NCBI RefSeq assembly: GCF_037042905.1
Contig: NC_087250.1
Span: 4,590,001-4,654,000 of the forward strand
DNA from: Lytechinus pictus
Taxonomy: Eukaryota
Direction of reading: 5' to 3'
Length of the DNA stretch: 64,000 bases
Shown piece after piece: positions 34,401 to 40,400 of the stretch. Under the pieces are notes generated by a model. That model ran no database searches and was not told the DNA's origin. It saw only the letters and a list, made by a program, of their open reading frames with translations. A program made the position numbers and the translations under genes. How positions within the stretch are numbered: the first letter of the stretch is position 1; each line of letters opens with the position of its first letter.

Positions 34401-37400
34401 AGAAAGTCTTTTGAATCAAGGTTAATTGTCAAAATATCATCATACATCTACTTGTAGATCTGGTACATTAATGCAAACTTATCTTTGTAAAATCATGAGG
34501 CCTTAGCCCAAAATCAGTGATTTTGATGATCACTAACACAGAAAAGCAAATCTTAGACAGCGTATTAATATTGCTTTGAAAAATACTCGACATTTGATGG
34601 AATTCTGTGCCTATTTTGCTCCTTTCTCAGCAATTATTCGTTTTCTCCCAAATCTATTGGGCACATATAACACTTTAGTAGTAATTTCATTGGATTCTGT
34701 TCGAACTCATTTTGAGATCATTACCACAACTAGTATTTTGCTTTAAGTGGGCTTATATTTTGTTGTGAAAAATGTTGCAAAGACCAATAAATGAAATATT
34801 TAAAGATCATTACCACAACTGGTATTTAACTTTAAGCGGGCTTATATTTAAAGACTAAACCGCTGAGAATGATGCACTATGGGAAATGAACCTGGCCAGA
34901 TATGAGACGTTGAGGACTTGAGGAGGGGCTGTTATAAAGGCTGCCAGTTCGTATGCCCTTTAAGTGATTCTCAATCTCTATTTTCATTCTCAGATCAATA
35001 GACGTTGCCAACTCCTCCCTCACATTTGATGTCGCCAACCCTGGATCGCACAGGCAATTCCAGATACAGTAAGTTATCAAAATTGACTTCCTTTAAAAAA
35101 AATGGCAGAAAGAAGCTGCTGATAACTGCTTATCTAGAAAAAGAGAGCCAATGGAGTAAATTAGAGAGTCAAAAGGGGCCTAAGCTTTCGATCCTAGCAG
35201 AATCTTCGTCGGAGGCAAAATGAAAAAAAAAATGATACTTTCTTTTTCACTTATAAGGAAAGCAGTCACTCGTGATCATTGTACATCTGCCTATCATGTT
35301 CAATCATATGCTTGATCTAAAAAATGAAACGAAATCAGAGGGGCAAGGTTGTTCATACATGTAGTTGTCTATAAACAACGTACATGGTCTCTGAATTTGG
35401 CATATCTGTGGAGATCAGTGCTTCCAGTTTTCAAAACAAAACCTCGTGGAATTTACTCCGAAAGTTCCTGGAATGTTACAAAATATCCCAGAATTTTACA
35501 AATGTTCCCCAGTCTTCCATAAAATGTTATAATTATCTTTTATATACAAAAGACATGAGATATACTGTAGGGCCCAGTGCCGTAATGAGCCCAACAAATT
35601 TTGAGGGGTGAAATATGACGTATTGGGCAAAGTTATTGACAGTTGCAAGCGAAGCGAGCGAGCACATATTTTTACTTTTTAATTTAATTAAAAAGTAAAA
35701 ATATGTGCTCGCTCGCTTCGTAATACAAAGATCCAATTTTGAGATAGATTTTGGCATAATATTTAGAAAATGATTTAATTCCCGGAAATGATAACTTTCC
35801 GGAAATTCTTACTTCCTAGAATTATCTTGGAAAAGAGCAAAACTTCATGGAATTTTGTGGATTCCGGGAAGAGTGGAAGCACTGGTAGATCATGTGTTCT
35901 TTCTATAGGAAGGCATGTAACACAGATTTTTTAAGAATACATCATGGATAAAGAGTATGTATCTGTATCACCATACGAAAAAGCAAAAAGAGACATTTTG
36001 AAGGTATTCTATAGTCCATCAAAGGGAAGTTGTTCACATGTGACATCACAAACATTTGTCGCATTGCCGATGGGAGGATCTCCATAGCATTAGTGATTGC
36101 AATATTCAAATGCTCATAACCTCATTATTTGTCCGATCTTTCTCAAACTTTCTTTGTTCTTATTCTTTGATTTTTTTTGTTTCGACACAAGCCTACTTGC
36201 TCCAAAGGTTTTTTTCATTTTTCAATGCAGTACTGATGGAAGAACCTACATCCTACAATGCAAGGATCAACATACTATGATGTTCTGGTTACAAGAGTTA
36301 CAGGTTGGTTTGAAATCATGTCAGTTTAGTGTGAAAATATCAGAAAAAATCGTAAGAAATTTTGGTGAAGGTTTGATGGAAATCCATCAAAGATTTAAGA
36401 AGTAATAAAGATTTTTTTTTTATTTATGACATATGCAAGCAGCTTCCCACGTATCAAAAATTTTAAAAATCTATAAAATATCATTTTCAAAAAAAAAAAA
36501 TGAAAATGTTTTTTTATTGTATACCTTAGTATATATCAACAGACAAATTATTCCACACTTGCTCCTGGAAGAAAACAATTTTTAGTCATCATGAACCATT
36601 AGAAAATGAAATTTATGGATTTTATATTCCATAAACATCTGGGGCAGCTGCTTGTACATGTATGTTACGTCACAAATCCAAAACTTCAAATTCTAATAAC
36701 TTTCTTAATGATTGATGGATTTTCATCAAACCTTAATACCACTAGTAATTTTTTTAGTGTTTTTACCAACAACTTCTCAAATGGGTGAACTTCCCCTTTA
36801 AGATATAAGAAATAGGTTAACAGCAACTTTTTTTTTTTTGGGGGGGGGGGGAGAGGACTGTCTACATGTTGTTTATTTTCTGAATAAGTTTGAAATATTT
36901 GTAATGAAATGAAAGATCAGACATGTATGAGATGCAATTAGCAAAAAAAAAAATAAATCTAAATCTGATGTACAGTAGTTAGTAGCAGCAATATGCAATT
37001 AAAATTTTGCGATGCAATTTTATGAAGGTGTATTGGACAATAGAGTATGAAAATTCCTTATCTTTATAACATGGTAAATAAATCATATACATGTACTCTT
37101 CAAATAAAATCTCCAAAAGCAAACAAATAAAGGAGAACAAAACTTAAGCAAATTAAAGAAAGATATGAACACTCAATTGGAAGCAGTATCAAAAGTTGTA
37201 TGAAATTCTGTCACAGGAGGACCAAATGGATTTCGAATGTACTTTTCTATGACCTTACCCTTTACTCTAACCCCAAACTCCCTTTTTGTATGAATATTTC
37301 AGAATTTAGGAATGCAAGAGTTTAAAATTTAATTTAATTTTTGTATGACATGAAAGACGAAGAGCCTACAGCAGTCAGAAAACATTAATCCTTGTCAAAG

Positions 37401-40400
37401 GAACGATCCCTGGCCTGCATAGGAATATTTCAGAAGCTAGGAATTGATGGGTTAAAAATGTCCTTTTATTTTTATGACAGGAAAGACGGCGAGCTTACAG
37501 CAGTCAGAAGACATCCCTGTCAAAGGAGAGGTCCCTTACCAGATATTCAGTACTAGTAAGTTACACAGATCTATGTTTGTACATGTATTGTTTAAAGAAA
37601 AAGAAGAAAAAAAGAAATAAAACAGAAGGTTTAGCAATCCACACAGTTGCCAACCATTATGTTTTTTCTTATCTTTTTTTTATTTTCTGCAACCAAATTA
37701 TGTCATTATGTTTTGTTTTTTTACTTTTTTTTTTCAAGGAATGTTGCCAACCATTACGTTTTTCTTGATATGTTTTTTTTTATTTTCTGCAACCAAATTT
37801 TACATTTTTCTTCATAACTTACAATTAAAAAAAAAAGAAATGTTGTTTTTTTATTTGTATTTCACTGAGAAAATTGTCCAATTTGATAAGGTGTTGAAAC
37901 TGTAATTTTTTCACTCTCCCAAGCATTCAACTTTTTGTAATTACAAAAAGTTGAATGCTTGGGATAGTGAAAAAATTACAGTTTTGGCCCAACATGTTCT
38001 TATTAATCATAGACCATTCCTATGGGACTTATAATTATAGAAATACACACATACACCCACTGAAAACAATTTCCTGTAATCAGTCTTCATTCATTTCTGA
38101 TCCTCATGTATCACCGGCCTCTGCCTAAATTCACAATTTCCTAGATTGTGTTTGAATAAACCTGGCAAATAACCAAATACCTATTTGTATTTTGATCGTT
38201 GACAACCATTCATGAAAATAAACAGCTGGCATGCAAAGGCCCGATCAAAATGTTATCTTGCTAGAGTGTGCATACTTCATGTTTAGAGTATTTGTCCTAT
38301 ATATTTGTCTTGTTTTCTTTATAATTCGGTCGAGTGGTTTTGATGTTAGCATAAACTACTGTAAATGATATTGATAAATATTTTGCCAGGTGACATTCAA
38401 TTTTTACATCATTGGAGTTTTTATAAGGTTTTATTCTTGATCTTTATTATATTAATGTTTATTTTATGTTACTATTGTTTACAGGGCTTCATGGAAGGCC
38501 ACCACCATAGTTAGTCATAGATAAATAAATAAATAGATAGATAGATAGATAGATGAATAAATAAACATGAATAGATAACTAAATAAATAATTAATTGACT
38601 AAATTAATAAATAAATGAAATTGATACAAGATATTGAGATTATTTGCAAAGTCCCTTATTCATTTTACATCATTCAATACAAACCTAGGCAAATTCATTT
38701 GAATAGATATCAGCAACATTACTATCCTCAGGCATTTCATATTCAGTTGGTGGTTTCAAATATTTGCATGAACTAAAATATATGGAGATTATATTGCAAA
38801 GTCCATAATTCATTTTGCATCATTGGTATGAACCTAGGCAATGCTTTTGAATTGATGTCAGCAACATTACTATCCTCAGGCATTTCATATTCAGTTGGTG
38901 GTTTTGATATTCACATTAACAATTTTATGATATGGAGATTATATTGCAAAGTTTGTATTCATTTTACATCATTGATACGTAACCTAGGCAATTCTTTCGA
39001 ATAGATGTTAGCAACGTTACTATCCCCAGGCATTTCATATTCAGTTGGTGGTTTAAATATTCGCATTATTAATTATTTTATGATATGGAGATTATATTGC
39101 AAAGTCCATAATTCATTTTGCATCATTGATACGTAACCTAGGCAATTATTTCGAATAGATGTCAGCAACGTTACTATCCCCAGGCATTTCATATTCAGTT
39201 GGTGGTATAAATATTCGCATTATTAACTATTTTATGATATGGAGATTATATTGCAAAGTCTGTTATTCATTTTTAATATATCATTGATATGAAACCTTGG
39301 CAATGCTTTTGAATTGATGTCAGCAACATTACTATCGCCAGGCATTTCATATTCAGTTGGTGGTTTTAATATTTGCATTGTTCAACTACTTTTATGGAGA
39401 TTTTATTGCAAAGTTTGTATTAATTTTACATCATTGGTATGAACCTAGGCAATGCTTTGAATTGATGTCAGCAACATTACTTTCCCCAGGCATATTTCTA
39501 TAATTGACATTAATTGCTTATTTGATTTTGTATAAGTACATTCAAGGGGTAGTGCTTACATGTACATGTAGTTTTGGTTTGGTTTCTGTTCAATTGTCTG
39601 GAGCGTGCTTCATGAAGTCCAATGACTAATAACTTTGTCATTAATTGTAACTTTCATGGAAACCTTGATTCTGATTGGCTGCTGAGCCCTGACACCATGG
39701 TAGTTGCCATAAATAACGGCAATTCTTGTATTTAAACTCTCTTTATGAAATGAATCACAAGGCTTAATTATATGCATTATAACATCATACCAATAATTAA
39801 ATGCATGTATATGTATTTGCGGTTGTATGTAAGGACTTTGTTAATGGCTCATTACTCTGTAATTATACATTATCCTGAAAATCATTTGGCAGATTTATTC
39901 ATAGCAAAAACCTGGGGGGGGGGGAGTGTTTCACAAAGATTTATGTACGACTTAAAGTCGCACTTGAATGCCGCCGTGTACATGATATGCAACGTGCAGT
40001 CTTATTTCATTTCATTTCATTTTCTCGTAATAAAAACATATACATGTAGAATAAATACAATCAATATACAACATATGACATATAAATATAAATACAAAGA
40101 ATATGGGGGAGCCAGCAGAGGCCATTGACCTTTCATAGGCTGCGCTCCAATACCATGTTTATCCAATTTTATACATAACTAGATACTTATCGATCAATAC
40201 TTTCTAAAACTAGTTTACTGGAAATCGGTTCAGGAAACCAGTTTGAAAGATCGCTTTGCTAGCGTTCCCATTTGATCACCCGAAAACGGTTTTCAAAACC
40301 ACTCCACGTAAAGCGATCTTGTTGCTATGGGAACACTCTCAGTGGGGTGACATGTTTCGCGCGAAATTTGAAACCGCAGCGTAGGAATTCCACGCACAGT

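What the first reader, a model, noticed from the sequence alone, without database searches (positions are those of the whole stretch)
37293..37555. Dead tandem twin of TBC1D2 exon 6 differs from it almost only at synonymous sites
Seen: 129 bp upstream of exon 6 is a copy of the intron end plus about 20 codons, starting at 37352. Its acceptor reads GACAT instead of GACAG, it carries a 4-nt TTAA insertion, and it has no donor. Codon comparison (exon vs copy): CGG/CGA, CGA/AGA, GCT/GCC, AAG/AAA, CTG/TTG, GAG/GAA, AGG/CGA, CTT/CTG. That is 9 synonymous nucleotide changes, with one replacement (ACC/GCC) at the edge of homology. Inference: a copy that was dead from birth should collect mostly non-synonymous changes. 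Both copies therefore seem to have encoded [19 protein letters not shown] under purifying selection for a long time, either as former redundant or mutually exclusive exons or as a copy imported from a deeply diverged allele, paralog or species. The TTAA may be a footprint of the local TTAA-targeting MITEs.
Basis: partly seen in the sequence, partly recalled or inferred. Interest (0 to 1): 0.7.

Follow-up and report, generated by a model that had tools for sequence, protein, structure and literature searches.

The report
Decayed partial tandem copy of exon
In a sea-urchin TBC1D2B-like gene, the end of an intron plus the first 19 codons of a highly conserved exon were duplicated in tandem long ago; the upstream copy is now dead, yet it differs from the live exon only at silent codon positions, which hints that it was once translated.

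Summary
A two-copy tandem repeat (unit about 125-131 bp, 37289-37419 and 37420-37537) carries the last 61-63 nt of intron 5 plus codons 1-19 of exon 6 (37481-37555, 75 nt, phase 0/0) of a TBC1D2B-like gene. The window's exons translate identically to Lytechinus pictus XP_063956810.

The upstream copy has AT where the acceptor AG should be, a 4-nt insertion, no usable donor, and lacks codons 20-25. All 9 nucleotide differences in the 19 shared codons are synonymous. Under a model in which the copy was dead from birth, P is about 2e-4.

A related species' contigs show the live exon unchanged at 8 of those 9 sites.

The functional reading is still only partly supported:
- The copy is partial.
- Exon-part divergence (16%) is about the same as intron-part divergence (21%).
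- None of 19 orthologue models has a second copy of the peptide.
- No RNA data or sister-species intron sequence could be obtained.

The mutually-exclusive-exon, diverged-allele and TTAA-footprint ideas are weak.

Best reading (about 0.4): a microhomology (TCCCT) tandem duplication whose copy was part of the mRNA for a time and was recently disabled. Main rival (about 0.3): a copy dead from birth, with the pattern due to chance.

This is a new member of a known kind and of modest interest.

The parts
36232..36303 (+). Exon 5 (end of the PH domain, ...MMFWLQELQ). Its donor would feed either acceptor.
   Evidence: Exact mapping of P0004 residues 239-262. The Pfam PH matches end at residues 263-268.
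37279..37283 (+). TCCCT microhomology just upstream of unit A. The same 5-mer ends the exon-like part of copy A (37407-37411) and codons 18-19 of exon 6 (37532-37536). It is the likely breakpoint of the duplication.
   Evidence: Read directly from the sequence. That it was the breakpoint is inferred.
37289..37351 (+). Copy A, intron-like part. It is the homologue of the last 61 nt of intron 5.
   Evidence: There are 48 identical columns, 13 mismatches and 2 gap columns (21% mismatch).
37350..37351 (+). Dead acceptor: AT where exon 6 has AG.
37352..37412 (+). Copy A, exon-like part: codons 1-19 of exon 6, interrupted by 4 extra bases. It has 9 differences from exon 6, all synonymous.
37385..37388 (+). 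4-nt insertion (TTAA, or TAAT one base to the right). It shifts the frame and leads to a stop at 37444-37446.
37413..37419 (+). Junction bases (GCCTGCA) that align neither to exon 6 nor clearly to the sequence upstream of unit A.
   Evidence: inference.
37420..37480 (+). Unit B, intron part: the true 3' end of intron 5, with the pyrimidine tract and the acceptor AG.
37481..37555 (+). Live exon 6: 75 nt, phase 0/0, peptide [25 protein letters not shown].
   Evidence: The peptide is identical in the L. pictus, L. variegatus and S. purpuratus models and matches 22 of 25 residues in Diadema.
37556..37561 (+). Donor GTAAGT of exon 6. It has no counterpart after copy A.

Best explanation
Shown:
- A local two-copy tandem duplication of about 125 bp copied the end of intron 5 (branch region, pyrimidine tract, acceptor) plus codons 1-19 of exon 6. 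The breakpoints lie at a TCCCT microhomology.
- The upstream copy cannot be spliced or read today. It has AT in place of AG, a 4-nt frameshifting insertion and no donor.

Inferred:
- The duplication is about 2-4 times older than the split from the related organism seen in public runs.
- For most of that time the upstream copy was part of the mRNA and under the same protein-level selection as exon 6. This left only silent differences.
- Because the copy never had a donor, the most likely way it was read is as an upstream alternative 3' splice site. Exon 5 spliced to copy A, and the transcript read on through the 68-nt former intron end into exon 6.
- In that form it is copy A, not exon 6, that completes the C-terminal helix of the PH domain (...[13 protein letters not shown]...). 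That would explain strong constraint on it.
- The long form was then lost in this lineage by AG>AT, followed by the 4-nt insertion.
For: The repeat is real and local (own-genome searches find only the window's own place).

All 9 differences in 19 codons are silent. Three of them are first-position changes of the rare silent kind (CGA/AGA, CTG/TTG, and AGG/CGA, which needs two steps).

The dead-from-birth null gives about 2e-4. With the neutral rate taken from the co-duplicated intron part, 4.3-8.6 replacements are expected in a dead copy and 0 are seen (P 0.014 to 2e-4).

The peptide is under strong selection. It is identical in three camarodont urchins and its ERRRAYS core is kept as far as starfish.

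All 12 of the 12 listed exon differences between the related organism and the window fall at third codon positions (with the frame taken).

The related organism's exon 6 keeps the window's state at 8 of the 9 sites where the copies differ.

Of the three frames of the 68-nt linker, only copy A's original frame is open.

The pseudo-acceptor region is otherwise well kept, as expected if the copy died recently.

The PH-domain matches end at residues 263-268, which is the start of exon 6.
Against: Without the 4-nt insertion, copy A is offset from exon 6 by 125 nt. That is one base out of frame, so the long form needs a further unseen 1-nt change.

None of the 19 orthologue or isoform models examined carries a second copy of the peptide or an insertion here.

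Overall divergence of the exon part (9 of 57) equals that of the intron part (13 of 61; Fisher p = 0.49). A uniformly decaying dead copy would show exactly this.

Silent-site divergence (0.65, CI 0.35-0.87) exceeds intron-part divergence (0.21; P = 6e-4). The intron end must therefore also have been constrained.

Two or three disabling lesions alongside zero replacements is awkward for a recent death.

The linker being open in one frame has roughly a 1 in 5 chance expectation (my own estimate from base composition).

The sample is 57 nt and was picked post hoc from a very large scan.

Partial, clearly useless exon copies do arise in this gene (the exon 3 triplication).
Confidence: 0.4

Rival explanations
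1. Dead from birth, with the pattern due to chance. The duplication made a useless fragment: an acceptor plus 19 codons with no donor. Its acceptor was lost early. The silent-only pattern combines silent changes in the constrained live exon, chance placement of changes in the copy, and post hoc selection by the reader.
For: The anatomy fits: a partial copy, no donor, no exon tail and no third unit. Divergence is uniform across the exon and intron parts (16% against 21%, Fisher p = 0.49) and there are three indels. In the same gene, 2 of the 22 mapped exons have adjacent partial tandem copies. The exon 3 copies are frame-breaking fragments, so such dead-born copies are common here. No orthologue model shows a second copy (0 of 19).
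Against: P is about 2e-4 for no amino-acid difference given 8-10 nucleotide differences. It is about 0.01 for no replacement at the intron-calibrated rate. Three silent first-position changes, one of them a two-step AGG/CGA switch, are hard to obtain by chance. A newly made upstream acceptor identical to the true one should have been harmful unless the product was tolerated (inference).
Confidence: 0.3
2. A true duplicated exon pair, later truncated. A larger duplication once gave two complete alternative (mutually exclusive) exons. A later deletion between the exon's TCCCT and the TCCCT in the next unit's intron removed copy A's last six codons, its donor and the spacer.
For: It explains the silent-only divergence with no frame problem. 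TCCCT stands at all three homologous places. Tandem exon duplication feeding mutually exclusive splicing is common: about 10% of animal genes, as cited in PMC9013439 (passages).
Against: It needs one more event. No trace of a tail or donor is left. No isoform with an alternative exon appears in any model. Three lesions without a single replacement is awkward.
Confidence: 0.1
3. The copy was imported from a deeply diverged haplotype or species. Unequal crossing-over or conversion between two long-separated functional alleles would make a copy that differs from its neighbour only by differences already filtered by selection.
For: It would give silent-only exon differences at birth without the copy ever working. 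Copy A shares AAA at codon 10 with the related organism's exon.
Against: The copies differ by 16-21%, against a reported urchin heterozygosity of 2.9-4.5% (PMC9557091, passages). The related organism's exon differs from the window's at only 3 of 75 sites and does not carry copy A's other states. No paralogous copy exists in the window's own assembly.
Confidence: 0.07
4. Selection by proxy through gene conversion. The copy is never expressed. Replacement variants in it are removed because occasional conversion carries them into the live exon, which matters in a species with a very large population.
For: The copies are direct repeats 129 bp apart. Sea urchins have very large populations (recalled). 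Disease-causing conversion from pseudogenes is known in humans (recalled).
Against: The longest identical run between the copies is 14 nt, which is too short for efficient conversion. Frequent conversion would also erase the silent differences, and these are numerous.
Confidence: 0.04
5. Assembly artefact. The duplicate does not exist in the animal.
For: No reads of the same species could be laid. The only holders found are a related organism with a small share of the words.
Against: An artefactual or haplotype duplicate would be nearly identical. These copies differ by 16-21% plus three indels.
Confidence: 0.02

Closest known systems
Tandem exon duplication giving alternative or mutually exclusive exons (Kondrashov and Koonin 2001 and Letunic et al. 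2002 are recalled; the 2002 study is summarised in PMC9013439, passages read)
   Same: A homologous coding segment lies directly upstream of an exon in the same intron. It has the same frame, its own copy of the acceptor region, and a selection-like pattern of differences.
   Different: Only 19 of 25 codons were copied. There is no donor, the acceptor is dead, the frame is broken, and there is no evidence of expression.
Unannotated intronic look-alikes of neighbouring exons (PMC9013439 reports 4,027 intronic targets in human genes, passages read)
   Same: An exon-like stretch inside an intron, next to its parent exon, missing from all gene models.
   Different: Such copies are usually assessed by expression. 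Here the notable feature is the codon-position pattern in a copy that is plainly disabled.
The young triplication at exon 3 of the same gene (32751-33232, period 160, 96% matches)
   Same: A small tandem duplication whose unit crosses an exon-intron boundary in the same gene and is found nowhere else in the genome.
   Different: It includes the 3' part of the exon plus the donor rather than the acceptor plus the 5' part. It is much younger, with 1 difference in 54 exon-derived bases. It carries no information on selection.
Alternative 3' splice sites that extend an exon upstream (a general class, recalled)
   Same: This is the proposed past use of copy A: an upstream acceptor adding an in-frame segment.
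   Different: Here the acceptor would have arisen by duplication of the true one. The added segment would repeat the start of the exon. This was not observed; it is inferred only.

Membership tests
Mutually exclusive tandem-duplicated exon pair | Two adjacent homologous exons of the same or similar length and compatible phase | tested here: not met
   The copy covers 57 of 75 nt. Codons 20-25 have no counterpart.
Mutually exclusive tandem-duplicated exon pair | Each exon has a working acceptor and donor | tested here: not met
   AT stands in place of AG at 37350-37351. The only GT sites are GTCAGA, GTCAAA, GTTAAA and GTCCTT.
Mutually exclusive tandem-duplicated exon pair | Both exons appear in transcripts, one at a time | not testable with these tools
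   No RNA holder was listed. Of 11 urchin models and isoforms, 10 contain the one exon and 1 skips it; none has an alternative.
Mutually exclusive tandem-duplicated exon pair | Differences between the exons shaped by purifying selection (dN much lower than dS) | tested here: met
   9 silent and 0 replacement differences in 19 codons. The null P is about 2e-4.
Dead partial tandem duplicate (pseudo-exon) | Direct tandem repeat, local only, with breakpoints at a short microhomology | tested here: met
   TCCCT stands at 37279, 37407 and 37532. That it was the breakpoint is inferred.
Dead partial tandem duplicate (pseudo-exon) | Disabling lesions in the splice sites or the frame | tested here: met
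   AG>AT, a 4-nt insertion and no donor.
Dead partial tandem duplicate (pseudo-exon) | Neutral pattern of substitutions, spread over all codon positions | tested here: not met
   Differences fall at codon positions 3 (six) and 1 (three, all silent) and never at position 2. This is the anomaly.
Transposon excision footprint (TTAA-targeting element) | A TTAA target present at the empty site, and an element with TTAA flanks nearby | tested here: not met
   The live exon reads ACATCC at the site. The insertion can be written TTAA or TAAT. The nearby palindrome is flanked by gttg/tggc, not TTAA.

The most novel reading that the evidence does not exclude
A duplication of only an acceptor plus the start of an exon created a new upstream 3' splice site. 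Its product was a PH-domain helix completed by the copy, followed by a roughly 42-residue in-frame repeat and linker. Selection kept this product for millions of years in toxopneustid urchins, and it was lost only recently in this lineage. Partial, donor-less exon copies could then be a route to new isoforms. Sister species may still express the long form.
Probability: 0.15. Interest if true: 0.55.

Novelty: new member of a known kind. Interest (0 to 1): 0.35.

Why it matters
Tandem exon duplication is a main source of alternative exons, but its failed or retired products are rarely examined. A plainly disabled, partial copy with a strong selection-like codon pattern would show one of two things. 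Either partial duplicates (an acceptor plus the exon start, with no donor) can be used and kept for long periods before being lost, or silent-only patterns this strong arise by chance more often than simple models predict. The second possibility would be a caution for dN/dS tests on short segments.

The case is cheap to settle with sister-species genomes and RNA-seq. On present evidence it is a neat single-locus anecdote rather than a new kind of element.

Tried and rejected
**Third repeat unit or hidden exon tail.** Local alignments of the 140-nt flanks against both units were not better than shuffles (p 0.10-0.89). The one exception, p = 0.01, is a T-rich low-complexity match. My impression that the start of the unit resembles the end of exon 6 was therefore dropped.

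**Paralogue or dispersed repeat as the source.** Own-genome searches with the DNA (221 and 251 nt) and with the 25-residue peptide found only the window's own place.

**RNA evidence.** No RNA holder was listed.

**Same-species DNA reads.** None was found. The 6 listed runs hold 5-7% of the words. The four that were laid belong to a related organism, with 8-12% mismatches in single-copy intron pieces.

**State of copy A in that organism.** It could not be read. X1 and X2 gave no cover over 37132-37379.

**ORF fragments from other urchins.** A search with the 55-residue frame that runs from copy A into exon 6 found no candidate.

**Earlier notes of this scan.** None was found by place, by relatives or by words.

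**Rfam.** There was no match inside 37293-37555. The 25 weak miRNA-type matches, all below their gathering scores, all sit on the palindrome at 37897-37984.

**TTAA footprint.** Rejected, as set out above.

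Full report
**What is there.** The stretch 37289-37419 is a direct tandem repeat of 37420-about 37537 (families D2, D3 and D9; alignment). Each unit holds about 61-63 nt of intron end followed by exon sequence. 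Exon 6 against its upstream 2 kb scores z = 21 over 40 shuffles.

The copy's exon-like part starts at 37352, which is 129 bp before the live exon start at 37481. It reads gacAT where the live acceptor reads gacAG. It carries 4 extra bases at 37385-37388, which can be written TTAA or, one base to the right, TAAT. The only GT dinucleotides in it and in the 68-nt linker are GTCAGA, GTCAAA, GTTAAA and GTCCTT, so it has no usable donor.

**Gene and frame.**
- A search with the first coding exon found TBC1 domain family member 2B-like proteins of Lytechinus and Strongylocentrotus.
- P0004 (L. pictus XP_063956810) maps exactly onto 22 exon blocks of the window.
- Exon 6 is 37481-37555: 75 nt, phase 0/0, with a GTAAGT donor at 37556.
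- The peptide is identical in 10 of 11 urchin models and isoforms; the eleventh skips the exon.
- It matches 22 of 25 residues in Diadema, and its ERRRAYS core is kept as far as starfish.
- The Pfam PH-domain matches end at residues 263-268. The start of exon 6 therefore continues the C-terminal helix of the PH domain (inference).

**Codon comparison.** With the 4 extra bases set aside, the 19 shared codons differ at 9 nucleotides, and all 9 are synonymous (S = 13.8, N = 43.2, pS 0.65, pN 0).
- Six differences are at third positions.
- Three are first-position changes of the rare silent kind: CGA/AGA, CTG/TTG, and AGG/CGA, which needs two steps.
- In the other two frames the same differences change 6 of 7 affected codons.
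- The ACC/GCC replacement follows a TCCCT that also stands just upstream of unit A (37279) and in exon 6 (37532). I take TCCCT to be the microhomology at the breakpoint, so ACC/GCC is probably outside the duplicated segment and the last silent difference sits on its edge (8 to 9 differences).

**Anatomy of the event.**
- No third unit and no remnant of the exon's last six codons or donor could be found.
- The units occur nowhere else in the 812-Mb assembly.
- The structure is therefore a simple two-copy tandem duplication of about 125 bp that never included a donor.
- The same gene holds a second, young case. The 3' part of exon 3, its donor and 106 nt of intron stand in three copies (period 160, 96% matches, 32751-33232).
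- In all, 2 of the 22 mapped exons have an adjacent partial tandem copy. Small boundary-crossing duplications clearly arise often here.

**Is the pattern more than chance?** I simulated a copy that drifts freely beside a live exon that accepts only silent changes.
- Among runs with 8-10 nucleotide differences, about 2e-4 had no amino-acid difference, for transition bias 1 or 3.
- The neutral rate taken from the co-duplicated intron part (13 mismatches in 61 columns, 21%) predicts 4.3-8.6 replacements in a dead copy. None is seen (P 0.014 to 2e-4).

Against a selection reading:
- The exon part as a whole (9 of 57) is no less diverged than the intron part (Fisher p = 0.49).
- Silent sites are more diverged than the intron part (P of at least 9 out of 14 at rate 0.21 is 6e-4).

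No simple model fits everything. A dead copy explains the total number of differences but not where they fall. A selected copy explains where they fall, but needs the intron end to have been constrained too.

**Outgroup.**
- Six public runs held 5-7% of the words of a 9.9-kb query, and none is on record as RNA.
- The four runs that were laid (3 studies) are contigs of a related organism, with 8-12% mismatches in single-copy intron pieces (table 8).
- All 12 of the 12 listed differences inside exons 4, 5 and 6 fall at third codon positions. The frames come, and the table was truncated.
- In exon 6 the four runs agree on three silent differences: 37510 G>A, 37513 A>G and 37519 G>A.
- The first of these gives AAA, which is copy A's state, so AAG is probably new in the window's lineage.
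- At the other 8 sites the related organism has the live exon's state.
- Whether that organism has copy A, and in what state, could not be read.

**Age.** Both measures put the duplication 2-4 times deeper than the split from the related organism. Intron-part divergence is 21% against 8-12%, and silent-site divergence is 0.65 against roughly 0.15-0.2 (the latter ratio is my arithmetic).

**Explanations.**
- *Best reading, about 0.4.* The copy was part of the mRNA for most of its life and was retired recently by AG>AT, followed by the 4-nt insertion. As it never had a donor, the likeliest use is as an upstream alternative 3' splice site reading through the 68-nt linker into exon 6. Only copy A's original frame is open through that linker. 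In such a transcript copy A would complete the PH-domain helix. Weak points: the present 125-nt offset is one base out of frame, no orthologue model shows an insertion (0 of 19), and there are several lesions but no replacement.
- *Main rival, about 0.3.* A fragment dead from birth, with the pattern due to chance and post hoc selection. The anatomy, the uniform divergence and the local base rate of such fragments all favour it.
- *Full exon pair later truncated at TCCCT, about 0.1.*
- *Import from a deeply diverged haplotype, about 0.07.* The copies differ by 16-21% against a reported heterozygosity of 2.9-4.5% (PMC9557091, passages).
- *Selection by proxy through gene conversion, about 0.04.* The longest shared run is only 14 nt.
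- *Assembly artefact, about 0.02.*

**Comparison with what is known.** Tandem exon duplication is common and is the accepted origin of many mutually exclusive exons. Intronic look-alikes of neighbouring exons have been catalogued (PMC9013439, passages; found by the search). This locus fails the membership test for a mutually exclusive pair on length, splice sites and expression. It meets that test only on the selection-like pattern. It fits a dead partial tandem duplicate in everything except the codon-position pattern. It is a new member of a known kind.

**Open points.** No RNA data, no reads of the same species and no sister-species intron sequence were available. The literature was checked with two searches and passages of two papers. 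I did not search for earlier descriptions of this particular locus.

Noticed in passing
window 32751-33232: The 3' 54 nt of exon 3 (...[18 protein letters not shown]), its GTAAGG donor and 106 nt of intron stand in three tandem copies (period 160, 96% matches). The unit is found nowhere else in the assembly. The junction creates a cAG in front of each extra copy. The one exon-part difference is AGG/AGA, which is silent. The unit also holds an internal 13-nt repeat (AGATGTAACACCA), present twice.
   Followed up: partly
window 37897-37984: An 88-nt perfect-type palindrome (44-nt arms, 98% complementary, no loop) lies in intron 6. It is not flanked by TTAA and occurs only here in the window. It draws 25 sub-threshold miRNA-hairpin matches in Rfam, all below their gathering scores.
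   Followed up: partly
window 44710-46833, minus strand: A 707-residue open frame with a reverse-transcriptase domain (PF00078, E = 6e-28) lies between the exons at 42236-42298 and 46944-47093. It is a retroelement inserted antisense to the gene.
   Followed up: partly
window 38630-39493: A 154-bp tandem array (5.7 copies, 85% matches; also reported with period 462) lies in intron 6.
   Followed up: no
window 35892-36263 and 36636-36759: The stretches just upstream of and overlapping the start of exon 5, and in intron 5, reach summed contig depths of 1e5-1e6 in the related organism's runs. These are high-copy dispersed repeats that abut exon 5.
   Followed up: no
window 48884-49226 and 49760-50112: Long triplet arrays (TCT/CCTCCTTCT and TGA units, about 100 or more copies each) lie in the introns flanking the exon at 49612-49737. 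They give long spurious open frames on both strands.
   Followed up: no
proteins P0003, P0008, P0009, P0001/P0006: One older S. purpuratus model (P0003) skips exon 6 and part of the PH domain. Older L. pictus and L. variegatus annotations each list two nearly identical gene products, whereas the window's assembly holds one locus. These are probably haplotype duplicates in the older assemblies.
   Followed up: no
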